64,000 bases of DNA from a virus. Both the position numbers and the translations under genes were made by a program. Location of the stretch: the IMG/VR virus record IMGVR_UViG_3300020182_000012; one strand, 5' to 3'. Positions 3,407-55,079 of the stretch are shown here, in pieces (positions within the stretch are counted from its first letter, which is position 1; each line of letters starts with the position of its first letter). A model generated the notes under the pieces. The model made no database searches, was not told the origin of the DNA, and worked only from the letters and a program-made list of their open reading frames with translations.

Positions 3407-5128
3407 ATGGCCGGATGGAAAAAATACTTTAAAGTGGTGGGCAACGAAGGTGGGCAACTTTCGCCTATTAGCGGACGGTCTACTCAAGGATCAAATGGTC
3501 AAGGCGGCCAATTTGGTTTTAAGAATTACCAAAGTCACTTGCCTGAAGTGTATTCAGGTCACCCTAACAGAATTGAACGCTACAATCAGTATGAAAATAT
3601 GGATTGCGACAGTGAAATCAATGCATGTTTAGATATCATTGCTGAGTTTGCAACACAAACCAATGAAAGCAACAACACACCGTTTGAAGTTGAATACACT
3701 GATACTCCTACAAACAACGAAATTGAGATTATTAGAAAACAACTACAACAGTGGACTAAACTCAACAAGTTTGATCAACGTATATTCCGTCTTTTCCGTA
3801 ACACGTTGAAGTACGGCGATCAAGTTTTTGTTAGAGATCCAGAAACCTTTGAACTATACTGGGTTGACATGACCAAAGTAGTAAGAGTTATTGTCAATGA
3901 AAACGAAGGCAAGAAACCTGAACAATACGTTATTCGTGATATCAATCCCAACTTTCAAAATTTAAGCATTGCTCCTAAAAGCACCACAGACTATGGATCA
4001 AATCCTAATGCAGGGTCAATTGGCGGCAGCGGCGGATCAAATTCAAACTACACTATCCCAAATGCACCTCTTGCAGGTGGACAAAGTAGATTTGAACACA
4101 CTATAAACGAAACAGTAATTGATGCTAAAAATATAGTACACCTTGGACTTAGTGAAGGCTTGGATTTTTATTGGCCGTTTAGTCAAAGTATACTTGAAAT
4201 GATTTTCAAAGTATTCAAGCAAAAAGAGTTACTTGAAGACTCGATTCTAATTTATCGTGTGCAACGTGCGCCAGAACGTAGAGTATTTTATATTGATGTA
4301 GGCAACATGCCAAGTCACCTTGCTATGCAGTTTGTTGAACGTGTTAAAAATGAAGTGCACCAAAGACGTATTCCCAATCAACAAGGCGGGCAAGCTGGTA
4401 CTACAATGGATACTACATACAATCCATTGTCAATCAACGAAGATTACTTCTTTCCACAAACAGCAGAAGGTAGAGGATCAAAAGTTGAAACACTACCAGG
4501 AGGCGAAAACCTTGGACAAATCGACGATTTAAAATACTTTAACAACAAGATGTGCAGAGGACTTCGTGTTCCTAGCAGCTACCTTCCGACTGGCCCAGAC
4601 GACAGTGATCGACCAATGAACGACGGTCGTGTTGGTACTGCACTTATACAAGAATATAGATTTAATCAGTATTGCGAAAGACTGCAAAAGCAAATTTGTC
4701 AAAAACTTGATGATGAATTTAAAATGTTTTTGCGCTGGAGAGGCTTTAACATTGACAGCGGGTTGTTTAGCATCAAGTTTGCACCGCCACAGAATTTTGC
4801 TAGTTATCGTCAAGCCGAACTTGATACAACTCGTATGCAAGCGTTTAGCACATTAGAGCAAATTCCCTACATGAGCAAGCGTTTTCTTATGAAACGTTAC
4901 CTGGGTCTCACTGACGACGAGTTGCAAGAAAACTCGAAATTGTGGAGTGAAGAAACTGGGCAACCAAGTGAACTTGAACCAATGGGCAAAGATTTACGCA
5001 CAGTTGGTGTTAGTCCTGCTGATTTTGATGCAGATATCGAAACCGGCGGTGACATTGAAGCAGGCGGTGAGGAAATTGATGTGGACATTGATGCTGGTGC
5101 AGTTGCAGCAGAAACGCCTCCGGCATAA
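3407..5128 (+). CDS. gp20: Portal protein (T4 gp20-like)
   Basis: LLEDSILIYRVQRAPERRVFYIDVGNMP, EDYFFP, GRGSKVETLPGGENLG motifs. Confidence 0.95.
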   Translation: MAGWKKYFKVVGNEGGQLSPISGRSTQGSNGQGGQFGFKNYQSHLPEVYSGHPNRIERYNQYENMDCDSEINACLDIIAEFATQTNESNNTPFEVEYTDTPTNNEIEIIRKQLQQWTKLNKFDQRIFRLFRNTLKYGDQVFVRDPETFELYWVDMTKVVRVIVNENEGKKPEQYVIRDINPNFQNLSIAPKSTTDYGSNPNAGSIGGSGGSNSNYTIPNAPLAGGQSRFEHTINETVIDAKNIVHLGLSEGLDFYWPFSQSILEMIFKVFKQKELLEDSILIYRVQRAPERRVFYIDVGNMPSHLAMQFVERVKNEVHQRRIPNQQGGQAGTTMDTTYNPLSINEDYFFPQTAEGRGSKVETLPGGENLGQIDDLKYFNNKMCRGLRVPSSYLPTGPDDSDRPMNDGRVGTALIQEYRFNQYCERLQKQICQKLDDEFKMFLRWRGFNIDSGLFSIKFAPPQNFASYRQAELDTTRMQAFSTLEQIPYMSKRFLMKRYLGLTDDELQENSKLWSEETGQPSELEPMGKDLRTVGVSPADFDADIETGGDIEAGGEEIDVDIDAGAVAAETPPA

Positions 5129-5136
5129 ATATTATT

Positions 5137-5352
5137 ATGAAACTATTTGAATTTTTTGAAGCAGCGCCAGAAGGGTACCAAGATGTAGAGGATGACAATT
5201 CTACACCGCAACTCGGCGAACTGCGCAAAACTAAACTAACTCTTAAACAAATTTCAAAACTTCGAAAAATGTATGACATGCGAAATTATGAAAAAAAAGA
5301 AGAGCTGAAAAAGGTGCAAGCACAATATGCACCAGCGCCGCCACAAATGTGA
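5137..5352 (+). CDS. Small putative prohead core/internal protein
   Basis: Follows the portal; MKLFEFFE N-terminus resembles a T4 capsid-targeting sequence; RKTKLTLKQI..LRKM. Confidence 0.6.
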   Translation: MKLFEFFEAAPEGYQDVEDDNSTPQLGELRKTKLTLKQISKLRKMYDMRNYEKKEELKKVQAQYAPAPPQM

Positions 5353-6292: not shown

Positions 6293-6919
6293 ATGGCTCT
6301 TTATCTTAGAGAAAACCTTACCTTCGAAACCGCACAAATTCAACTCGTTGAAGGGAAAGACGGTAAGGAACTCTTTATGGAAGGCATCTGCATACAAGGT
6401 GGTGTTAAGAACGCTAATGAGCGAATATACCCTGTGAGTGAGATTTCTAACGCAGTTAAAACTCTTAATGAACAGATCAAAGAAGGCAATAGCGTCCTTG
6501 GTGAAGTTGATCACCCGGATGACCTTAAGATTAATTTAGACCGTGTATGTCACATGATTACTAGTATGTGGATGGACGGTCCAAATGGATACGGAAAACT
6601 AAAAATACTTCCAACACCAATGGGCGAGCTAGTTAAAACTATGCTTCAGTCAGGTGTGCGATTGGGAGTATCTAGTCGTGGATCGGGTAATGTAGATCCA
6701 CACAACGGACACGTCAGTGACTTTGAAATTGTTACTGTCGATGTAGTCGCACAACCCAGTGCTCCAAATGCTTACCCTAAAGCTATTTACGAAGGACTTT
6801 TGAACATGAAACATGGTCATGCAGTTCTCGAAATGGCTAGGGAGTCAGGGTCAAACGACAGAGTACAGAAGTACCTAACAGACGAAGTATCTCGTCTGAT
6901 TAGGGACCTAAAGATTTAG
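6293..6919 (+). CDS. gp21: Prohead protease (T4 gp21-like)
   Basis: NANERIYP, GEVDHP, INLDRVCH, GVSSRGSG, DVVAQPSAPNAY motifs. Confidence 0.95.
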   Translation: MALYLRENLTFETAQIQLVEGKDGKELFMEGICIQGGVKNANERIYPVSEISNAVKTLNEQIKEGNSVLGEVDHPDDLKINLDRVCHMITSMWMDGPNGYGKLKILPTPMGELVKTMLQSGVRLGVSSRGSGNVDPHNGHVSDFEIVTVDVVAQPSAPNAYPKAIYEGLLNMKHGHAVLEMARESGSNDRVQKYLTDEVSRLIRDLKI

Positions 6920-6928
6920 GAGAATCGC

Positions 6929-8020
6929 ATGTTAGATGCTATTAAACCACTACTAGATAGCGACCTGGTTAATGAGGATACTCGTAATGCTATTGCTGAA
7001 CAATGGGCAGCAAAGTTGAATGAGACCAAAGAAACAGTTCGTGCAGAACTTCGCGAGGAGTTTGCACAACGCTATGATCATGATAAAACAGTGATGGTAG
7101 AAGCCCTAGATAAAATGGTAACAGAAGGCTTGCAAGAAGAAATTGCTCAACTTAACGAAGAGAAAAAGGCACTTGCAGAGGACCGTGTAAAAGCCGCAAA
7201 CGCAATGAAAGAAAATGCTAATAAATTTAATAACTTTATGGTATCAAAACTTTCAGAAGAGCTTCGCGAACTACGCACAGACCGCAAAGTACAAGCAGAA
7301 GGTTTTGGTAAGCTAGAATCATTTGTTGTAAGTGCTTTGGCCGAAGAAATCAAGGAATTCGCAGCAGACAAGAAAGACTTAGTTGAAACTAAAGTAAAGC
7401 TTGTTAGCGAAGCACGTGGACAACTTGATAGTCTAAAAAGTAAATTTGTAAAAGAATCTGCTAAAAAGATGTCAACAACTGTTGCTACTCATCTTACGCA
7501 AGAATTAAGTCAACTTAAAGAGGATATCAAAATTGCTCGTGAGAACAATTTTGGTCGCCGTATATTTGAAGCATATGCTACAGAGTTTGGTGCTACTCAT
7601 CTCAATGAGAATGCAGAAGTACGCAAACTATTAGCTACTATTGAAGATAAAGACATTAAGTTGGCAGAAGCCGTTAACGCTCAAAAACAAGCCGCAAAGC
7701 TTGTTGAGAGTAAAAATCATGAAATTAAAATCATTCGTGAAGCTAATGAGCGGGAAGCTACATTAGACGAACTACTTTCGCCTCTTAACGATGAAAAGAG
7801 AGAAGTAATGATTAATCTTCTTGAAAACGTTCAAACATCTCGTCTAAAGAACGCATTTGAGAAGTACTTGCCAGCAGTACTCAGTGAAGCTAAAGCAACT
7901 AAAAAAGCTGAAGCACTTGTTGAATCTACTGGTAACAAAACTGTTAAGGCCGAACAACAAAGATCCGAAACAAACAACGTTAATAACGTTATCGATCTTA
8001 AGCGCCTAGCAGGGCTTTAA
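6929..8020 (+). CDS. gp22: Major prohead scaffold protein (T4 gp22-like)
   Basis: Glu/Lys-rich coiled coil between protease and major capsid gene. Confidence 0.8.
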   Translation: MLDAIKPLLDSDLVNEDTRNAIAEQWAAKLNETKETVRAELREEFAQRYDHDKTVMVEALDKMVTEGLQEEIAQLNEEKKALAEDRVKAANAMKENANKFNNFMVSKLSEELRELRTDRKVQAEGFGKLESFVVSALAEEIKEFAADKKDLVETKVKLVSEARGQLDSLKSKFVKESAKKMSTTVATHLTQELSQLKEDIKIARENNFGRRIFEAYATEFGATHLNENAEVRKLLATIEDKDIKLAEAVNAQKQAAKLVESKNHEIKIIREANEREATLDELLSPLNDEKREVMINLLENVQTSRLKNAFEKYLPAVLSEAKATKKAEALVESTGNKTVKAEQQRSETNNVNNVIDLKRLAGL

Positions 8021-8040: not shown

Positions 8041-9252
8041 ATGTCACAAGAACTACTAGAAAACAGATGGAGTGAGACCAAGGAAGCCCTCCTAGAAGGC
8101 CTTCAAGGTTCACGCCGTTCAACAATGGGTGTTATCCTAGAAAACACTCGTAAGCACTTGGCAGAGAATGCAACAGCAGGTTCAACTTCTTCCGGTAACG
8201 TAGCAACACTTAACCGTGTTATCCTACCAGTTATCAGACGTGTTATGCCAACTGTTATTGCTAACGAACTAGTCGGCGTTCAGCCAATGACTGGCCCAGT
8301 TGGCCAAATTCACACACTACGTGTTCGTTATGCAAACGCAATGACAGACAACTCGGCAGCAGCAACAAGTACAGCCGCTGGTGACGAAGCACTAAGTCCA
8401 TTCAAAATTGCACAAGCTTACTCCTCTGCGTCCACAGTGACAGCAGGCGTTGTACAAAATGCACAGAACACATACCAAGGTGCAAACACAGCAGTACTTG
8501 AAGGCTCCGGTGGTCGTCAGATTTCCGTACAAATCCTCAAGCAAGCTGTTGAAGCAAAAACACGTAAGCTACAAGCTCGCTGGACATTTGAAGCAGCACA
8601 AGACGCACAAGCCATGCACGGCATTGACGTTGAAGCTGAAATCATGGCAGCACTTGCTCAAGAAATTACTGCTGAAATCGACCAAGAGATCCTACTTTCT
8701 CTACGTTCACTAGCAGCAACTGAGTTTACATACAACCAAGCCACAGTATCAGGTACAGCAACATTTGTTGGTGACGAGCATGCAGCTCTTGCAGTTCTAA
8801 TCAACCGTACAGCTAACTTGATCGCTCAGCGTACACGCCGTGGCGCAGGCAACTATGCTGTTGTTTCCCCTGCTGCACTTACAGTGCTACAGAGTGCAAC
8901 AACAAGTGCATTTGCTCGCACAACAGAAGGCACATTCGAAGCACCAACAAATACTAAATTCGTCGGTACATTGAATGGCACAATGCGTGTATTCTGCGAC
9001 TCATATGCAGGCGACACAACTCCAGTACTAGTTGGCTACAAAGGCGCAAGTGAAACAGACGCACCAGCGTTCTATTGCCCATACGTACCGCTAATGAGTT
9101 CGGGCGTTGTTCTTGATCCGTCCAGCTTTGAGCCAGTAGTGTCCTTTATGACACGTTATGGCTATATTGAGCTAACAAACACAGCATCGTCCTTCGGCAA
9201 CGCCGGTGACTATGTTGGTGAAATTGCTGTACAGAACCTTTCGTTCTCATAA
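8041..9252 (+). CDS. gp23: Major capsid protein (T4 gp23-like)
   Basis: VGVQPMTGPVG, AKTRKLQARWTFEAAQD, FYCPYVPL, FMTRYG; strong AGGAG RBS. Confidence 0.97.
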   Translation: MSQELLENRWSETKEALLEGLQGSRRSTMGVILENTRKHLAENATAGSTSSGNVATLNRVILPVIRRVMPTVIANELVGVQPMTGPVGQIHTLRVRYANAMTDNSAAATSTAAGDEALSPFKIAQAYSSASTVTAGVVQNAQNTYQGANTAVLEGSGGRQISVQILKQAVEAKTRKLQARWTFEAAQDAQAMHGIDVEAEIMAALAQEITAEIDQEILLSLRSLAATEFTYNQATVSGTATFVGDEHAALAVLINRTANLIAQRTRRGAGNYAVVSPAALTVLQSATTSAFARTTEGTFEAPTNTKFVGTLNGTMRVFCDSYAGDTTPVLVGYKGASETDAPAFYCPYVPLMSSGVVLDPSSFEPVVSFMTRYGYIELTNTASSFGNAGDYVGEIAVQNLSFS

Positions 9253-31501: not shown

Positions 31502-32275
31502 ATGGCAACAGTAACACTTGATCAAACACTTGATACTCTCAAGCAACAAACAATCGATTATGTAAAGCTTCAGCTCGGAGACGGAATGATTGATTTGGAA
31601 CTTGATGCAGAGCACTACGAAGCATCGTATCAACGAGCCCTTGGCACATACCGCCAACGAGCAGAAAATGCGTTTGAGGAAAGTTATAACTTTCTAAAAT
31701 TGCAAGATGGTGTAAATGTTTACACACTGCCCAGTGAAATACAAACTGTTAGGCAAGTGTTCAGAAGAACCATTGGGTGGGACAACGGCGGAGAAGGTAG
31801 TGCGTTTGAACCGTTTAGTTCAGCTGCACTTAACACATACTTGTTGAATGGTAACACCATGGGCGGACTTGCTACATATGATTTTTATAGCCAGTATGTT
31901 GAGCTTACTGCTAAGATGTTTGGTGGATTTTTGAATTACACTTACAATAGTGCATCTAAGGAGATAACACTAATGCGTGATATCAAGGGCAGCGGTGAAG
32001 TTGTATTGCTTTGGTGTTACAATCTGCGACCCGAAGCACAACTACTCAGCGATTTTTCTATCTCGCAATGGATAAAGGATTATATGATTGGCAATTGTAA
32101 ACTAATGATCGGCGAAGCCAGAGAAAAGTTTGCTACTATTGCTGGACCCCAAGGCGGTACTGCACTAAACGGTGCACAAATGAAAGCCGAAGGATCTGCT
32201 ATCATGGCTGAAAAAATCGAAGAGCTTAAAAACTATGTTGACGGCTCACAGCCTCTTACTTGGGTAATTGGATAA
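31502..32275 (+). CDS. gp13: Neck protein (T4 gp13-like)
   Basis: LG...IDLELD..HY, WIKDY....K..IG..R.KF..I.GPQGG..LNG. Confidence 0.85.
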   Translation: MATVTLDQTLDTLKQQTIDYVKLQLGDGMIDLELDAEHYEASYQRALGTYRQRAENAFEESYNFLKLQDGVNVYTLPSEIQTVRQVFRRTIGWDNGGEGSAFEPFSSAALNTYLLNGNTMGGLATYDFYSQYVELTAKMFGGFLNYTYNSASKEITLMRDIKGSGEVVLLWCYNLRPEAQLLSDFSISQWIKDYMIGNCKLMIGEAREKFATIAGPQGGTALNGAQMKAEGSAIMAEKIEELKNYVDGSQPLTWVIG

Positions 32276-43956: not shown

Positions 43957-45381
43957 ATGGACAACATTTACACAACACTCGCAAAATTACAAGACGTTAC
44001 TAACAGAACTCCTATCATGGAAAGTGACACAGCTGGTAATATTGAAAACCTCAAAAAAGAATCAACTAAAGCTGTATCCGAAGATGACAGTATTTTTGCA
44101 GACACTGCACTAAGCATGGACAACCTTGCTAAACTCAAAGAAGTTGAAGAAACTGCTGGGACTATTAAAGCCGAGCTTAAAGATGCTATGATGTCACGTT
44201 TAGCTGAACTAGCAGGTGTGCCACTAAGTGAAATTGAAGAAGCAGCCGGCGAAAGTGAAACTGCTGAATCTGCTGCTAGTAGAATTGCAAGCGAAGTAGT
44301 GTTAGATGATGAGGATATTGCGGAAGCAAAAGACACACATTGTTCAGATAAGTGCTGCGGCAGTGATGTTAAAGCAGAAGACTGCAACTGTCCACCAGAT
44401 TGCAAGCATTGCAATTGCAACGCAGTAAGTGAATCATCTGCTGAGGATGAACGTGCACACATGCAAGCATTAGCAAAAGCATCCGAACCAGAGCGTGGCG
44501 AAGAGAGAAAAAAAGTATCTCTAAAGAAAGCACCATGGGAAGAGTCAGTTGAAGAAGCAGTAGGCGATAGTGCCGAGGCTATTTGGGAGTTATGCGACGA
44601 ATTAGACTGTGCAGCTCACCCGGTTTTCAGCGAATTAGTGCGCTACCTAGACGGCGATACACTACAAGACTTTGTGGCAGACTTCCGCAGACACAATGAC
44701 ATGAACGAAGGTGCAGTTAACGAAGATGACATTGACGAAAATGCATTTAATCAAGCTGCCGCAGCCGCAGCACGTGCAGGTAAAAAAGATTTCGAGTTTG
44801 GCGGCAAGACACACAAAACTACAATGAGTAAAGACACAGCACACAAATTAGATGATGATGTACAAGTCGACGAGGAAGAAAAAGTCGAAGAAACTACAAC
44901 AGCCGGCGCAGTTGCAACAGACGCAAGCGGCAACGGTAAATCACTGTACAAACATGCAAGTGTGTACGAAGGCAACGATATTGCTCAAAATGCAATGAGA
45001 CTAATGGAAGGTATGAATATCAACGTTAGTATGAATGATCAAAGTGGCCCAAGCCTAACTGTTACAGCAACAGACGAGGATGCAGCCAAACTTGGTTCAT
45101 TGCTACAGCTAGCAGGACTCGGTTCACTTGGTATGCAGCACGAAGCTGTTGCTGAAGATCAAGATTTTGCTAATGCTGCTGACGATACTGCAACGGCTGA
45201 TACTGAAACACTTGTTAATACAATTAGTGGTGGTCTTAACAGACAGAAGCAGCAAGTTAATCCTAACAATCCTGGCGACAATGCATTGGCAATGCAAGGT
45301 ATGGGCAACAACACAGTCAATCTTGAAGATATCACCGAAAGTCACTTAATGTCTCTTTACCAGGAGTTTAAAACAAAATGA
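43957..45381 (+). CDS. Acidic modular putative core polyprotein with a Cys-rich segment
   Basis: Many hydrophobic-X-E sites; 8-Cys segment; LLQLAGL motif like the scaffold C-terminus LKRLAGL. Confidence 0.65.
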   Translation: MDNIYTTLAKLQDVTNRTPIMESDTAGNIENLKKESTKAVSEDDSIFADTALSMDNLAKLKEVEETAGTIKAELKDAMMSRLAELAGVPLSEIEEAAGESETAESAASRIASEVVLDDEDIAEAKDTHCSDKCCGSDVKAEDCNCPPDCKHCNCNAVSESSAEDERAHMQALAKASEPERGEERKKVSLKKAPWEESVEEAVGDSAEAIWELCDELDCAAHPVFSELVRYLDGDTLQDFVADFRRHNDMNEGAVNEDDIDENAFNQAAAAAARAGKKDFEFGGKTHKTTMSKDTAHKLDDDVQVDEEEKVEETTTAGAVATDASGNGKSLYKHASVYEGNDIAQNAMRLMEGMNINVSMNDQSGPSLTVTATDEDAAKLGSLLQLAGLGSLGMQHEAVAEDQDFANAADDTATADTETLVNTISGGLNRQKQQVNPNNPGDNALAMQGMGNNTVNLEDITESHLMSLYQEFKTK

Positions 45382-46301
45382 GCTTAACAAAATACATCTC
45401 CGAGAGCGAAAGAGCACAGTCTTTTATGATTGAAGGCGATGTATTTGTCGCAGTTGTCAACGAAGAACTAGCACTAGAGTTTGATGTTGCAAGTCACAAC
45501 GATGATAGTGTGGTTATCGAATCAGATGAATATGGACTATCGGTGCTCGAAGGCTGCGGTTGCACAATAAGTGACGACGACGAAGTATCCGAAGGCAAGA
45601 TGAAAGATTCTCAACTTGACGATGCTGAAAACATGAGTAAAGCAGAGTTCATTAAAAAGCACGGTAGAGAAGCAGCAATAAATTATTTTGAATCAGCTGA
45701 GGTTACAACTAACTATTCTGATCAAGCAAAATTTCACGAACGCATGGGTAACAAAGATACCGCTGCATTCTATATGAAAAAACATCACACTGCACTTGCT
45801 GAAAGTTTTGAACTTGTTGAAGATTCAGACGATGTAGCAGACATTATTAAGCGTAGACTCATGACCATGGGAGGATTTAGCGATCTCGTTAGACAGTACG
45901 GTGTTGACCGTATGATTGACGCAATTGAACAAGAAGCTGAACTTCACGCAGACGATGAAGAAATGGGCTCAAGTGATGTTAGCGCAATGGTTAACAATGT
46001 GATGCAAACTTTAGAGTATGGCAAAACCAATGAAGCCAAATATCAAGGACGTGAAGTTAAGCTCGGCAAGCCATCAAGGGGCGATGTTAAAAAGTTTAAG
46101 GTGTATGTAAAAGATCCTAAAACAGGAAATGTTAAAAAAGTAAACTTTGGAGATCCTAACATGGAAATCCGTAGAGACAACCCGGATGCTCGTAAAAACT
46201 TCCGTGCTAGACACAATTGCTCGGACAAAAAAGATAGAACAAAAGCAGGCTACTGGAGTTGCCGTATGTGGAGTAAAAAACCAGTAAGTAAGATTACATA
46301 A
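45378..46301 (+). CDS. Modular putative internal protein with a basic C-terminal domain
   Basis: MSLTKYISE leader; C-terminal KFKVYVKDPKTGNVKKVNFGD...FRARHNC...AGYWSC domain. Confidence 0.65.
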   Translation: MSLTKYISESERAQSFMIEGDVFVAVVNEELALEFDVASHNDDSVVIESDEYGLSVLEGCGCTISDDDEVSEGKMKDSQLDDAENMSKAEFIKKHGREAAINYFESAEVTTNYSDQAKFHERMGNKDTAAFYMKKHHTALAESFELVEDSDDVADIIKRRLMTMGGFSDLVRQYGVDRMIDAIEQEAELHADDEEMGSSDVSAMVNNVMQTLEYGKTNEAKYQGREVKLGKPSRGDVKKFKVYVKDPKTGNVKKVNFGDPNMEIRRDNPDARKNFRARHNCSDKKDRTKAGYWSCRMWSKKPVSKIT

Positions 46302-51522: not shown

Positions 51523-53094
51523 ATGAGCAAATCACTTGACGGGGTGCTGATTAAAAGTCCCCATAAAAAAGAAGAATACACTGAACAGCAAATTCAAGAA
51601 TTTGTGCTGTGCGCTGATCCTGTGAAGGGTGCCGAATACTTTATGAAGAACTTTTTCTTCATACAACACCCTGTGCAAGGAAAAATGCAGTATGATCCTT
51701 GGGAATTTCAAGAACGCTTGATTCAAACTTACCACGAAAACAGATTTTCAATATCAATGATGCCAAGGCAAACTGGTAAAAGCACAAGTGCTGCTGGATA
51801 TCTTCTTTGGTTTGGTATGTTCAAACCCGACAGTACAATTCTTGTTGCAGCACACAAGTATGCAGGTGCTCAAGAAATTATGCAACGTGTGAGGTATGCA
51901 TACGAAGCATGCCCAAATCACATACGAGCCGGCGTAGTAAGTTACAATAAAGGCAGTATTGAATTTGACAATGGAAGTCGTATTGTAGCACAGACGACAA
52001 CTGAAAATACCGGACGTGGTATGAGTATTACACTTTTATATTGTGACGAGTTTGCATTTGTTCGACCTACTATTGCTAAAGAATTTTGGACTAGTATATC
52101 ACCTACACTGAGCACCGGTGGTGGGGCTATTATTACTAGTACCCCAAACAGTGACGAGGATCAGTTTGCATACATATGGAAAGGCGCAAACAAAACCGAA
52201 GACGAGTTTGGAAATACCAAAGACTTGGGCATTAATGGATTTAAAGCGTATCGAGCATATTGGGCCGAGCATCCCGATAGGGACGAAGAATGGGCAGATG
52301 AGCAACGTGCTATATTAGGAATTGAACGATTCCGTCGAGAAATGGATTGTGAATTCATTATCAACGATGAAACACTTATTGCTCCAACCAAACTGATTGA
52401 TCTCGAAGGCATAGAACCTTTATATAAAACTGGACAAGTTCGTTGGTATAAAAAGCCACAGAAAAATAGAATCTATGTAGTGGCATTGGACCCAAGCCTG
52501 GGCACTGGCGGCGATCCAAGTGCTATCCAAGTGTTTGAAGCTAACACAACAGAACAAGTGGCAGAGTGGCGACACAATAAAACTCCTATTCCGGACCAAA
52601 TTCGAATATTAGTTGACATCATTAAACACATCAATGACGAAGTTCAAGATCCGCAGAGTGTTTACTATTCAGTTGAAAACAATACACTAGGAGAAGCTGC
52701 GTTGATTACAATTGATCAATATGGGGAACAAAATATACCTGGTTATTTTCTAAGTGACAACAGTGTTGTTAGTGGTAGTGGCAGGCGGTATCGCAAAGGA
52801 TTTAATACCACAAACAAAAGTAAAGTTTCAGCATGTGCAAAATTAAAAACACTTGTTGAAACAGACAAAATGACAGTTCGTAGTAGAAGTCTAATAGGCG
52901 AATTTAAAAACTTTGTAGCACATGGCACTAGCTATGCAGCTAAACCCGGAGAAACAGATGATTTGGTTATGTCTACTATATTAGCTATTCGTATGTTGCA
53001 AATTTTAACAGGGTATCACAAGGAACTGGATACACACATGACTGATTTTGGAGAGGATCAAATTGAACCTTTGCCGTTTGTGGCAATGTTTTAA
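51523..53094 (+). CDS. gp17: Terminase large subunit (T4 gp17-like)
   Basis: PRQTGKS Walker A, LLYCDEFAF, ITSTPN, ALDPS, DDLVM. Confidence 0.95.
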   Translation: MSKSLDGVLIKSPHKKEEYTEQQIQEFVLCADPVKGAEYFMKNFFFIQHPVQGKMQYDPWEFQERLIQTYHENRFSISMMPRQTGKSTSAAGYLLWFGMFKPDSTILVAAHKYAGAQEIMQRVRYAYEACPNHIRAGVVSYNKGSIEFDNGSRIVAQTTTENTGRGMSITLLYCDEFAFVRPTIAKEFWTSISPTLSTGGGAIITSTPNSDEDQFAYIWKGANKTEDEFGNTKDLGINGFKAYRAYWAEHPDRDEEWADEQRAILGIERFRREMDCEFIINDETLIAPTKLIDLEGIEPLYKTGQVRWYKKPQKNRIYVVALDPSLGTGGDPSAIQVFEANTTEQVAEWRHNKTPIPDQIRILVDIIKHINDEVQDPQSVYYSVENNTLGEAALITIDQYGEQNIPGYFLSDNSVVSGSGRRYRKGFNTTNKSKVSACAKLKTLVETDKMTVRSRSLIGEFKNFVAHGTSYAAKPGETDDLVMSTILAIRMLQILTGYHKELDTHMTDFGEDQIEPLPFVAMF

Positions 53095-53105
53095 TAAATA
53101 GTATT

Positions 53106-55079
53106 ATGGCACAAGATAACAACGCAGCACAACAAATTTTCGATACTATAGTAACACGAGACCTTGACCCTAAATCACTCGATGCTATGGGCAAGCCGAC
53201 TGTGAATGCAGCCGATGCAGATCTAATTTCGTTTAATTTTAAAACCGAAAACAAAGATTATGGAACAGTGGTTGTCTTAATAGACGGCGAAGAGAAAATT
53301 GAATTATATTACGGTGACAGCATTGGGCGCACAATGGAACGTGATGACCGCAGTGATTGGTATGATTTCCTTGCGGTTATTAGAAATATAGCAAAGCGTA
53401 ACTTGTACACATTTGGCCTTAATAATATGAATAGGTTAAAGTATTCAATGAAAAGCATGGCAAAATTAGCCGAAGGTTGGAACGGAACAAATAAAACCAG
53501 CTATAACAAGCAAGGTCCAGCAAAGCTTATTATCAAACATTCACGAAAGCTAGGCGAAGGTGAAGCACGTTTTAGAAACATTGAAAGTTTGTTTGTTGAA
53601 AATAGCCAAGGCGAAAGATTTAAAATGCCATTCCGTAGTATAAGTGGCGGTAAAGCAATGGCAAGACATGTGTCCGAAGGCGGTAACCCATACGACACAA
53701 TTGGGCAACATATCAGTGACACAATTAGTGAAATAGCAACACTGGGAAGATTTATTAGAGCCAGTAAAAGCAAATCATTTGGGCAAAATGCAGATGCGCT
53801 AAACATTGCCGAAGATGCAGTTAGGCACTACAAAGACCTTAAACGCAAAGCAAAGAAAATGATCAGTCGTCGGGGCTATAAAGATATCTTTGCATCATGG
53901 GATCCGATGGAAATTACCGAGCTTGACGAAACCATTGAGCAAGTAAGAGAAGTATTTTCAAAAAATACAATTGATAGCCGTATCGAAGAAGCTCTACCAA
54001 TATTAGCAAAGATAAAGGAAACTAGCATGAAAGAAGCTGACGTATTTGAGCAGTGGGCAGACAGTATCACTGAAGGTACATGGGCATTGCCCGATACGCC
54101 AGAACAAATGGCAGAATTAGCTGAACTTATGAAAGAACCATTGCATTGTGGTCCAGCTGGCGAATTTGCAACTGAGCAACTGTATGGACTAATTGGCGAC
54201 GATGAACTGTTTGATGACATTTATGAAATGGGATTGGAAAATCCCGATGCTGATTGTAGACCACTAGTACTAGCTAGACTCAAAGAATTCAACATCGAGC
54301 TTGGCGAAAATGCACCAATGACTAGCATACGCCCACAGTCTAGAACACTTAGCAACCTTGGCGGCACACGAGAAATTGCACCAAACGGAGAACCAACTGG
54401 TAGTACCAGAGGCTTTAAGCCACTAGGAGAAGATGAGCAGTTAAATGAAATTGCACCTGCTGCGGTTGCAGCGGCTGTTTGGGTTATCAAATGGTGTATC
54501 AGATTTGGTGCTTGGCCAGTAATTAAGTGGTTGTTGAAAAAACACGGTGGTAAACTGTTTGGTGGCGCAGCTATAGCTTATTATATTGACGAAGGATGGG
54601 ATTGGGTTAAACGTGCAATTGGTGAAGAATATGCACAAATGTTGATTGACAATAAATTTGAAATTGGCATGGCAGTTGCATTTATAGTAGGTGCTGTTGC
54701 ACTTAAAAAACTCGTCGAGAAACAAGGTGAGAAACTTGTTAGTGCAAACGACAAGATGGACACAATGAATGAAGATCAGGCATATAGAACTGATCGTTTA
54801 AATACTATTCAAAAAGATAGAACTGATCGTCTAAACGCTATTCAAAAAGGCAGAGATGATCGAAAAGCAGAACTTCAAAAGTCTAGAGATGACAGACGTG
54901 GAGTAGTAGAAGATCCAACGCAAGAAGAGCCTCTTACTAAAGCAAATCAACAAGACCTCGACGATGAAGATATGACAGAAGTAACAGACATTGACACAGG
55001 AAAACCTGCACTAAAAGCAGAGCGTGACCCAATGATCGAATCAGAGCTAGATAGACTATTAACACTAGCTCGAGGGTAG
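53106..55079 (+). CDS. Modular virion-associated protein with a hydrophobic insert
   Basis: AMARHVSEGG.PYD core; several X-E cleavage-like sites; amphipathic segment 54450-54773. Confidence 0.7.
   Translation: MAQDNNAAQQIFDTIVTRDLDPKSLDAMGKPTVNAADADLISFNFKTENKDYGTVVVLIDGEEKIELYYGDSIGRTMERDDRSDWYDFLAVIRNIAKRNLYTFGLNNMNRLKYSMKSMAKLAEGWNGTNKTSYNKQGPAKLIIKHSRKLGEGEARFRNIESLFVENSQGERFKMPFRSISGGKAMARHVSEGGNPYDTIGQHISDTISEIATLGRFIRASKSKSFGQNADALNIAEDAVRHYKDLKRKAKKMISRRGYKDIFASWDPMEITELDETIEQVREVFSKNTIDSRIEEALPILAKIKETSMKEADVFEQWADSITEGTWALPDTPEQMAELAELMKEPLHCGPAGEFATEQLYGLIGDDELFDDIYEMGLENPDADCRPLVLARLKEFNIELGENAPMTSIRPQSRTLSNLGGTREIAPNGEPTGSTRGFKPLGEDEQLNEIAPAAVAAAVWVIKWCIRFGAWPVIKWLLKKHGGKLFGGAAIAYYIDEGWDWVKRAIGEEYAQMLIDNKFEIGMAVAFIVGAVALKKLVEKQGEKLVSANDKMDTMNEDQAYRTDRLNTIQKDRTDRLNAIQKGRDDRKAELQKSRDDRRGVVEDPTQEEPLTKANQQDLDDEDMTEVTDIDTGKPALKAERDPMIESELDRLLTLARG
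54784..54849 (+). repeat. 33-nt tandem repeat (RTDRLNxIQKx), degenerate copies follow
   Basis: ATAGAACTGATCGT(T/C)TAAA...CTATTCAAAAAG twice. Confidence 0.85.

What the first reader, a model, noticed from the sequence alone, without database searches (positions are those of the whole stretch)
54450..54773. Bacteriocin-like membrane-active module between LNE and MNE sites
Seen: a 108-aa segment (IAPAAVAAAVWVIKWCIRFGAWPVIKWLLKKHGGKLFGGAAIAYYIDEGWDWVKRAIG...IGMAVAFIVGAVALKK) that is Trp/Lys-rich, amphipathic and hydrophobic within an otherwise soluble protein. Its composition recalls leaderless four-helix bacteriocins (aureocin A53, lacticin Q). Inference: released in the capsid and ejected to act on the host membrane, for DNA passage or exclusion.
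Basis: inference. Interest (0 to 1): 0.7.

Follow-up and report, generated by a model that had tools for sequence, protein, structure and literature searches.

The report
Protease-flanked hydrophobic cargo module in phage
A 108-residue hydrophobic, Trp/Lys-rich domain inside a jumbo-phage virion protein is a conserved, unannotated cassette that moves between capsid-targeted proteins. It always sits just after a T4-type prohead-protease site, so it is probably cut out in the head, and possibly ejected to act on the host membrane.

Summary
Window 54450-54773 encodes residues 449-556 of the 657-aa protein at 53106-55079, just downstream of TerL. It is the only hydrophobic stretch in that protein.

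The phage has a T4-type head module, including a gp21-like S77 protease. The segment is an autonomous domain family with about 119 clusters, all metagenomic. It has no match in Pfam, PHROGs, PDB sequences or GenBank phages.

Only the six nearest homologues of this protein carry it. Elsewhere it sits in unrelated carriers, most of which start with T4 CTS-like leaders such as MKINEITE or MLLRELFE. In 60 of 62 distinct carriers, [LIV]-x-E lies directly before the module. dN/dS is 0.07-0.28, and each genome record searched has one copy.

Excision by the prohead protease and capsid targeting are therefore well supported by comparison. Neither has been shown experimentally.

The bacteriocin (saposin-fold) analogy found no support: there is no sequence hit, and fold searches gave only noise. 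Membrane activity remains an inference. Hydrophobicity is marginal, as in T7 gp16 or SPN3US gp47.

The scan noted a similar injected-protein gene block in another genome (e1-5392672).

Verdict: a new variant of a known kind, of moderate interest.

The parts
53106..55079 (+). Carrier gene: 657-aa virion-protein homologue directly downstream of TerL
   Evidence: ORF. phrog_13484 'virion structural protein', E 9.6e-14. The PA5oct homologue gp278 was detected in virions by ESI-MS/MS according to its annotation. More than 1751 metagenomic homologues.
53106..54305 (+). Conserved N-terminal alpha/beta domain (aa 1-400), function unknown, no N-terminal CTS-like leader
   Evidence: 55-66% identity to more distant family members (79-95% to the six nearest). 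AF2 pLDDT about 70-84 in parts. No PDB fold match. BFVD matches only to uncharacterised phage proteins, one of them named a large polyvalent-protein-associated domain.
54306..54449 (+). Disordered Pro/Arg/Ser linker (aa 401-448) ending in the upstream site Q-L-N-E448
   Evidence: pLDDT 25-31. E448 and P451 are invariant across 49 family members, where the site reads ESI(N/T)E|(N/D)PT. PA5oct gp278 keeps ESINE.
54450..54773 (+). The finding: 108-aa hydrophobic Trp/Lys-rich module (aa 449-556), an autonomous helical domain
   Evidence: AF2 gives 5-6 helices, pLDDT 68, pTM 0.52. 25 representative hits among 1.84 billion proteins. 62 IMG/VR loci. dN/dS 0.07-0.28.
54450..54506 (+). First hydrophobic helix (aa 449-467), Ala-rich, followed by the conserved GAWP turn and an amphipathic Trp/Lys helix
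   Evidence: KD peak 1.60. Helices at module residues 3-18 and 22-36. A8, W11 invariant; W22, P23, W27 nearly invariant (>=90%).
54657..54704 (+). Second hydrophobic helix (aa 518-533), Gly/Ala-rich small-xxx-small pattern
   Evidence: KD peak 1.75. Helix at module residues 72-107. Strongly conserved columns.
54765..54773 (+). Downstream site T-M-N-E556
   Evidence: A hydrophobic-N-E site is present at this place in all six module-bearing homologues of this protein (MNE or INE).
54774..54911 (+). Charged 11-residue tandem-repeat helix (aa 557-602) ending in V-V-E602; a separate, optional cassette
   Evidence: Absent in P0009 and P0011, longer in P0007. Helix 555-598 with pLDDT 81-88.
54912..55079 (+). 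Conserved C-terminal tail (aa 603-657, begins DPTQEEP), shared by the whole family
   Evidence: Invariant E625, D628, D630, T631, G632, K637, R640, P642, E645, R650, L652.
6293..6919 (+). T4 gp21-type prohead serine protease, the presumed processing enzyme
   Evidence: PF03420 Peptidase_S77, 91.7 bits (cut-off 27). phrog_207, E 2.5e-57. It is flanked by the gp20 portal (3407-5128) and the gp23 major capsid protein (8041-9252).
51523..53094 (+). Large terminase subunit, the upstream neighbour (context)
   Evidence: Terminase_6N E 6.7e-17; phrog_36964 E 1.8e-109.

Best explanation
The segment is an autonomous helical domain of about 100 residues, and a new, unannotated family. It behaves as a cargo cassette of T4-type head-internal proteins. 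It is translated as part of a larger carrier, here a conserved virion protein. It is built into the prohead and cut out by the gp21-like S77 protease at the L-N-E448 and M-N-E556 junctions. This step is inferred from comparison.

The free piece of about 12 kDa stays packed as a soluble helical bundle with the DNA. It leaves the head with the DNA at infection. It then unfolds so that its two Ala/Gly-rich hydrophobic helices and its Trp/Lys interfacial helix insert into the host inner membrane. There it would help DNA passage, or seal or modify the membrane. This last step is inference only.
For: Shown directly:
- The phage has a T4-type head module with a Peptidase_S77 protease.
- The module is the only hydrophobic part of the protein. 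Within the P0002 family it occurs only in the six nearest homologues, as an insertion placed exactly after the family's invariant E-x-x-P site.
- The same module occurs in at least four unrelated carrier types: stand-alone 150-215-aa proteins, cytidylyltransferase polyproteins, phrog_7595-domain proteins, and this virion protein.
- Most carriers start with leaders such as MKINEITE, MKIKEITE or MLLRELFE. These resemble the T4 CTS MKTYQEFIAE (the string occurs in PMC8442874; that it is the T4 CTS is from my own knowledge).
- 60 of 62 distinct carriers have [LIV]-x-E immediately before the module (L 41, I 11, V 8). This matches the published gp21 motif L/I-X-E (PMC9026906).
- Whole cassettes come and go exactly between such sites.
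- The module genes lie in clusters of small genes that all carry such leaders.
- There is one module copy per genome record, and S77 proteases occur in both lineages tested.
- Purifying selection is strong, with dN/dS 0.07-0.28.

For a membrane role:
- Two KD peaks reach 1.60 and 1.75.
- There are conserved Trp residues, a +6 basic flank and small-xxx-small helices.
- There are precedents for packaged proteins whose membrane segments are held soluble before ejection: T7 gp16 (PMC8954989) and SPN3US gp47, whose predicted TM helix follows the protease site (PMC5694885).
Against: - No cleavage, packaging or membrane activity has been observed for any member, and no cultured phage carries the module.
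- The carrier in this window has no N-terminal CTS-like leader, so its route into the head is unknown. Virion location rests on the annotation of a PA5oct homologue that shares only the N-terminal domain.
- L/I-x-E is a short motif: there are 29 hydrophobic-x-E sites in this protein. Two motif-conforming sites lie inside the module, IGE in 71% of members and hydrophobic-x-E-K in 60%. The final product size is therefore uncertain.
- Both hydrophobic helices are only 16-17 residues long. They give positive insertion energies on a translocon scale recalled from memory (+3 to +6).
- Polar and apolar columns are equally conserved, which fits a soluble packed bundle as well as a membrane protein.
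- The AF2 model has only moderate confidence.
Confidence: 0.45

Rival explanations
1. The module is a soluble helical-bundle or oligomerisation domain of the prohead core or inner head, for example a core-assembly or DNA-organising piece. Its hydrophobic helices form the protein interior, and it never touches a membrane.
For: - Hydrophobicity is marginal: 16-17-residue helices with positive insertion energies.
- AF2 folds it as a compact 5-6-helix bundle.
- Conservation is high at polar motifs (DQGWDWV, IGEEYAQMLIDNKFE) as well as apolar ones.
- Carriers must be soluble in the cytoplasm. They include enzymes.
- T4 core proteins are also cut at several L/I-x-E sites (PMC9026906).
Against: - Six Trp residues, with basic residues flanking the hydrophobic stretches, are typical of membrane-interface segments.
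- No other carrier module is hydrophobic.
- Most phages of this clade lack the module, which is odd for a core-assembly part.
Confidence: 0.25
2. The module is a transient membrane tether used while proheads assemble on the inner membrane. The protease clips it at maturation so that the prohead is released.
For: T4 and SPN3US proheads assemble on the inner membrane and detach after proteolysis (PMC9026906). The module is bounded on both sides by protease-type sites.
Against: - CTS-type proteins are enclosed inside the core and shell, out of reach of the membrane.
- In T4 the tether is the portal with YidC.
- The module is absent from most relatives, which presumably assemble in the same way.
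Confidence: 0.1
3. The module is an ordinary phage-made membrane protein that is not packaged: a holin or antiholin, or an Imm-like exclusion protein. The stand-alone forms would be the true functional genes.
For: Stand-alone forms are small (150-215 aa), with two hydrophobic helices and a very basic C-terminal tail. This is superficially like a class II holin.
Against: - There is no holin, Pfam or PHROG match.
- The same module is embedded at the end of, or inside, large soluble polyproteins.
- The genes sit among CTS-leader gene clusters, not lysis cassettes.
- The conserved cleavage site lies directly before the module.
Confidence: 0.07
4. The module is a homologue of leaderless saposin-fold bacteriocins (aureocin A53, lacticin Q) that the phage has recruited.
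For: Composition only: Trp/Lys-rich, cationic N-terminal half, helical.
Against: - No Pfam hit at E<=0.1.
- No PDB sequence hit at E<=10.
- Best Foldseek PDB hit E=3.
- Best VIA-align Z 5.7, with no bacteriocin among the top 50.
- The module is twice the length of those peptides.
- All hits among 1.84 billion representative proteins look phage-borne.
Confidence: 0.03

Closest known systems
T4 internal proteins (IPI, IPII, IPIII, Alt) with capsid targeting sequences, processed by gp21
   Same: The head gene set is the same (gp20, gp21-type S77 protease, gp23). Most carriers have N-terminal leaders of about 8-13 residues ending in hydrophobic-x-E. L/I-x-E junctions are present. The gene clusters are hypervariable and the cargo is diverse (PMC9026906, PMC3012670).
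   Different: T4 internal proteins are single soluble, mostly basic proteins. Here the cargo is a chain of cassettes, and this cassette is hydrophobic. The carrier in this window has no N-terminal leader. No T4 internal protein is homologous, and there is no PHROG hit.
SPN3US gp47 and other giant-phage (phiKZ-like) ejection proteins
   Same: These are head-packaged proteins cut by a gp21-related prohead protease. In gp47 a predicted transmembrane helix lies directly after the cleavage site, and the authors speculate that it interacts with the host membrane (PMC5694885).
   Different: The protease family differs (S80, motif S/A-x-E). No sequence relation was found. gp47 is a large essential protein, not a mobile 100-residue cassette.
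Podovirus ejection proteins T7 gp14/gp16 and P22 gp7/gp16/gp20
   Same: These are packed inside the head in a soluble, globular form. They refold after ejection to insert into host membranes and form the DNA conduit (PMC8954989). This is the working model proposed here.
   Different: There is no homology. They are not made as protease-cut polyproteins. The present phage has a T4-type head module and its relatives (PA5oct, RaK2 group) are myoviruses; no tail genes were identified here. A role in DNA passage is unproven.
Polyvalent proteins of phages and conjugative elements
   Same: These are multi-domain carriers delivered with the DNA. One BFVD match of the N-terminal domain bears the name 'large polyvalent protein-associated domain'.
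   Different: That match is a predicted-structure hit to an uncharacterised protein. There is no Pfam LPD hit. Polyvalent proteins are not defined by prohead-protease junctions.
Leaderless class IId bacteriocins (aureocin A53, lacticin Q)
   Same: Trp/Lys-rich cationic helical composition.
   Different: No sequence or fold match. The length is double. The module is embedded in a phage polyprotein, and the host context is a phage that carries Kdo-synthesis genes, not a Firmicute.

Membership tests
T4-type capsid-targeted, gp21-processed internal head proteins | The phage encodes a gp21-type (Peptidase_S77) prohead protease with a T4-type portal and major capsid protein | tested here: met
   PF03420 91.7 bits; PF07230 portal; PF07068 Gp23. 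S77 was also found in relatives G002 and G003.
T4-type capsid-targeted, gp21-processed internal head proteins | N-terminal capsid targeting sequence of about 10 residues ending in L/I-x-E | tested here: not met
   The window's carrier starts MAQDNNAAQQIF, and its first hydrophobic-x-E is at residue 123. Most other carriers of the same module do have such leaders: MKINEITE, MKIKEITE, MLLRELFE, MKMQEILE.
T4-type capsid-targeted, gp21-processed internal head proteins | L/I-x-E site at the boundary of the mature piece | tested here: met
   LNE448 lies upstream and MNE556 downstream. 60 of 62 distinct carriers have [LIV]-x-E directly before the module.
T4-type capsid-targeted, gp21-processed internal head proteins | Protein found in the head and shown to be cleaved and ejected | not testable with these tools
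   The only evidence is the annotation of PA5oct gp278, which shares the N-terminal domain and is marked as virion-associated by ESI-MS/MS. No cultured phage has the module.
Leaderless saposin-fold bacteriocins (aureocin A53 / lacticin Q) | Sequence membership of the family | tested here: not met
   No Pfam family at E<=0.1. No PDB chain at E<=10 with the module profile.
Leaderless saposin-fold bacteriocins (aureocin A53 / lacticin Q) | Compact saposin-like four-helix fold | tested here: inconclusive
   AF2 gives a 5-6-helix bundle at pLDDT 68. Best Foldseek PDB hit E=3. Best VIA-align wide Z 5.7, with no bacteriocin in the list.
Leaderless saposin-fold bacteriocins (aureocin A53 / lacticin Q) | Peptide of about 50 residues, translated as such and secreted without processing | tested here: not met
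   The module is about 100 residues and is always part of a larger phage protein, preceded by a protease-type site.
Podovirus ejection proteins (T7 gp14/15/16, P22 gp7/16/20) | Sequence homology to those families | tested here: not met
   No PHROG, Pfam or PDB sequence match for the module or for stand-alone carriers.
Holins | Match to a holin family, and a place in a lysis cassette | tested here: not met
   No PHROG or Pfam holin hit. Neighbouring genes carry CTS-type leaders; the other neighbours are a Lon-like protease, a DNA polymerase and a cytidylyltransferase.

The most novel reading that the evidence does not exclude
The module is a mobile membrane-insertion cassette. It is released inside the head by the prohead protease and injected with the genome. 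It then forms the inner-membrane conduit for the DNA, or seals or remodels the membrane around it. This would be the first head-borne, membrane-inserting ejection protein delivered by the T4-type CTS route. It would also show that L/I-x-E junctions act as plug-in points that let cargo domains hop between carrier proteins.
Probability: 0.3. Interest if true: 0.75.

Novelty: new variant of a known kind. Interest (0 to 1): 0.55.

Why it matters
How DNA crosses the inner membrane is poorly understood for contractile-tailed phages with T4-type heads. Their known head cargo consists of soluble proteins.

This module is conserved, single-copy and protease-flanked, and it rides on interchangeable capsid-targeted carriers. 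It would be a concrete candidate for a membrane-acting ejected protein.

It also shows plainly how cargo domains are shuffled at protease junctions. That bears on how phages evolve injected effectors, and on engineering T4-type packaging and delivery vectors.

If it is only a soluble core piece, the finding is a new domain family of modest interest.

Tried and rejected
- Bacteriocin or saposin fold: Foldseek against PDB gave nothing better than E=3. VIA-align over 48,161 chains gave a best Z of 5.7, which is noise for helical bundles. Pfam, PHROGs and PDB sequence searches found nothing.
- ESM Atlas gave no usable hit for the module or for a stand-alone carrier.
- GenBank phages: tblastn with the module and with a stand-alone form found no match.
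- Fold of the N-terminal domain: no PDB match below E=0.1, only weak GNAT-like rows. BFVD returned only uncharacterised phage proteins.
- GC content across the gene shows no foreign-DNA signal at the module. The skews follow amino-acid composition.
- The window's own assembly is not held. The nearest record, G001 (25 kb), has no module.
- The PA5oct proteome paper says nothing about processing of the homologue.
- Reverse-strand ORFs over the module (54441-54725 and 54581-54763) were dismissed, because the + frame is conserved under purifying selection.

Full report
**1. Observation**

They are residues 449-556 of the 657-aa product of ORF 53106-55079. This ORF starts 12 nt after the large terminase gene, 51523-53094.

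L-N-E is residues 446-448 and M-N-E is residues 554-556.

The segment holds 6 Trp in 108 residues, against 5 in the other 549 (Fisher p 0.004). Lys is 11.1% against 6.9%. Net charge is +6 in its first 40 residues and -4 in the middle.

It contains the only two Kyte-Doolittle peaks of 1.0 or more in the protein, 1.60 at residue 449 and 1.75 at residue 519. The description is therefore correct.

**2. Setting**

The window belongs to a phage with a T4-type head module:
- gp20-type portal, 3407-5128;
- Peptidase_S77 (gp21-type) prohead protease, 6293-6919;
- a scaffold-like gene, 6929-8020;
- gp23-type major capsid protein, 8041-9252.

It also has gp32-like and UvsX-like genes.

The nearest cultured relatives are distant jumbo phages of the PA5oct and RaK2 group. 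A 299,910-bp IMG/VR contig (L018 = G002) is nearly identical and syntenic.

The window's own assembly is not held.

**3. The carrier protein**

The protein has more than 1751 metagenomic homologues.

Residues 1-400 are 55-66% identical to more distant family members, 79-95% to the six nearest. The last 55 residues or so are also conserved. The middle is variable.

The N-terminal part matches phrog_13484, 'virion structural protein'. It also matches PA5oct gp278, which is annotated as virion-associated by ESI-MS/MS.

Fold searches of the whole-protein model gave no PDB match. In BFVD they gave only uncharacterised phage proteins, one of them named for a large polyvalent-protein-associated domain.

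The Glu of L-N-E448 and the Pro three residues later are invariant in a 49-member alignment. In most members the site reads ESI(N/T)E followed by (N/D)PT. PA5oct gp278 keeps ESINE. The site in front of the module is therefore an old feature of the family.

**4. The module is a lineage-specific insertion**

Among the 120 best homologues, only the six nearest (P0006-P0011) have any hydrophobic peak in this region. Alignment shows that they alone carry the module.

The module sits directly after the ancestral E-x-x-P site. The family's usual DPTQEEP continuation reappears after the insertion, behind a second or third hydrophobic-x-E site.

Other pieces come and go exactly between such sites:
- the charged 11-residue repeat (aa 557-602) is absent in P0009 and P0011 and longer in P0007;
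- P0009 has an extra sigma-70 region-4-like piece in front of the module.

**5. The module is a family of its own and rides on unrelated carriers**

A full HMMER scan of 1.84 billion representative proteins found 25 hits. A profile search found 119 clusters at 90% identity, all unnamed and metagenomic. IMG/VR holds 62 loci.

There is no Pfam, PHROG, PDB-sequence, ESM-Atlas or GenBank-phage match.

The carriers fall into four types:
- this virion protein;
- stand-alone proteins of 150-215 aa;
- polyproteins that begin with a cytidylyltransferase domain and end with the module;
- proteins that combine it with a phrog_7595 domain, which is also the C-terminal domain of the window's 45378-46301 protein.

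Most carriers begin with MKINEITE, MKIKEITE, MKVSQVTE, MLLRELFE, MKMQEILE or similar. These are close in form to the T4 capsid targeting sequence MKTYQEFIAE (the string occurs in PMC8442874; its identity as the T4 CTS is from my own knowledge; the role of the CTS is described in PMC9026906 and PMC3012670).

The module genes lie in runs of small genes that nearly all start with such leaders. These runs sit near a Lon-like protease and a family-B DNA polymerase.

The window itself has such leaders on four other genes, at 32275, 43337, 45378 and 46601. In total 6 of 70 ORFs match the leader pattern (two of these are the major capsid protein and the 42772 ORF), against 1.5 expected from shuffles.

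**6. Junctions**

In 60 of 62 distinct module-bearing proteins, [LIV]-x-E lies immediately before the module. P3 is L 41, I 11, V 8. P2 is D 38, N 18. The next three residues are usually [AIVM]-[AV]-P. This is the published gp21 specificity, L/I-X-E (PMC9026906).

A second site follows 10-20 residues after the last helix unless the protein ends there.

Two motif-conforming sites also lie inside the module, IGE in 71% of members and hydrophobic-x-E-K in 60%. The exact final product is therefore uncertain.

Each genome record searched has one module copy. S77 proteases are present both in the lineage with the virion-protein carrier and in one with a stand-alone carrier.

dN/dS against the window copy is 0.07-0.28.

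**7. Structure and the bacteriocin idea**

AlphaFold2 with 24 sequences gives a bundle of 5-6 helices, with pLDDT 68 and pTM 0.52. In the whole-protein model, the module and the linker before it have low confidence and make no confident contact with the N-terminal domain.

Foldseek against PDB found nothing better than E=3. VIA-align over 48,161 chains gave a best Z of 5.7, below the level expected by chance for helical bundles, and no bacteriocin was listed. The likeness to aureocin A53 or lacticin Q is therefore one of composition only.

**8. Mechanism**

The third step, action on the host membrane after ejection, is inference. In favour:
- the two hydrophobic, Ala/Gly-rich helices;
- the conserved Trp residues and basic flank;
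- the precedents of T7 gp16, whose membrane segments are folded as a soluble globule before ejection (PMC8954989);
- SPN3US gp47, whose predicted transmembrane helix directly follows the protease site (PMC5694885).

Against:
- the helices are short, and a translocon scale recalled from memory gives positive insertion energies;
- polar and apolar positions are equally conserved;
- the carrier here lacks a CTS leader;
- most phages of the clade lack the module.

I put about 0.8 on 'mobile, protease-delimited head cargo cassette' and about 0.45 on the full statement that includes membrane action.

The main rival is a soluble core or oligomerisation domain (0.25). The others are a transient assembly tether (0.1), an unpackaged holin-like or Imm-like protein (0.07), and a true bacteriocin homologue (0.03).

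**9. Novelty**

Packaged, protease-processed, ejected head proteins are known. A conserved hydrophobic cargo domain that hops between CTS-type carriers is, as far as these searches show, not described. No library holds it. I rate it a new variant of a known kind, with interest 0.55.

Two earlier scan notes describe the same cargo system: e1-5826009 for this window, and e1-5392672 for a gene block in another genome that includes an 'MI-ISE' leader like that of the stand-alone module proteins. I checked the leaders and junctions myself.

Noticed in passing
window 54774-54911: A charged 11-residue tandem repeat (pattern R-T/D-D-R-L-N-x-I-Q-K-x) forms a confident long helix between MNE556 and VVE602. 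It is absent in P0009 and P0011 and longer in P0007, so it is an optional cassette with variable copy number.
   Followed up: partly
L016 / L018 8234-10468 (P0009): In a near-identical relative, the same gene carries an extra cassette of about 130 residues with a sigma-70 region-4-like HTH (PF04545), placed just upstream of the hydrophobic module. The same cassette occurs in cytidylyltransferase polyproteins (P0129). A packaged sigma-like fragment may be injected.
   Followed up: partly
P0128, P0131, P0134, P0137, P0142, P0148, P0149 (stand-alone carriers): A basic cassette (pattern K-x-x-M-P-K-A-K-x-G-R-x-x-H-P-L-x-G-K-L-V-G-E/D) travels with the module, sometimes before it and sometimes after it. 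It ends in V-G-E/D, another junction-like site.
   Followed up: no
window 43957-45381; L053 10436-11317; L057 10639-11517; L021 9112-9801: The Cys-rich piece of the window's 43957 protein (…THCSDKCCG…) forms the N-terminus of a separate protein encoded right next to the module gene in other phages. The pieces joined in this window's polyproteins are therefore separate or differently joined elsewhere.
   Followed up: partly
window 45378-46301; P0130, L012, L017, L019, L020: The phrog_7595 C-terminal domain of the window's 45378 protein is fused downstream of the hydrophobic module in another carrier type.
   Followed up: partly
window 54306-54449; P0007, P0010: The linker before the module holds Pro/Arg/Ser-rich units (S-M-R-P-M-A-R-P-S). 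These are repeated two to four times in relatives but occur once here. AF2 predicts the linker to be disordered.
   Followed up: no
window 53106-54305: Weak Foldseek rows (E 0.1-0.5, probability up to about 0.5) link part of the N-terminal domain to GNAT acetyltransferases. They are too weak to use, but could be tested with a domain-only model.
   Followed up: no
L031 6969-8999; P0127, P0129, P0135, P0230, P0231: Cytidylyltransferase / NMN-adenylyltransferase-like enzymes carry CTS-like leaders (MLLRELFE, MKFKDIKE). In one case a ParB-like nuclease domain is also present. This suggests that enzymes are packaged and injected.
   Followed up: no
window 5137-5350 (approx.): A small ORF between the portal and the acidic 5439 gene starts MKLFEFFE. 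This is another CTS-like leader inside the head-gene block.
   Followed up: no
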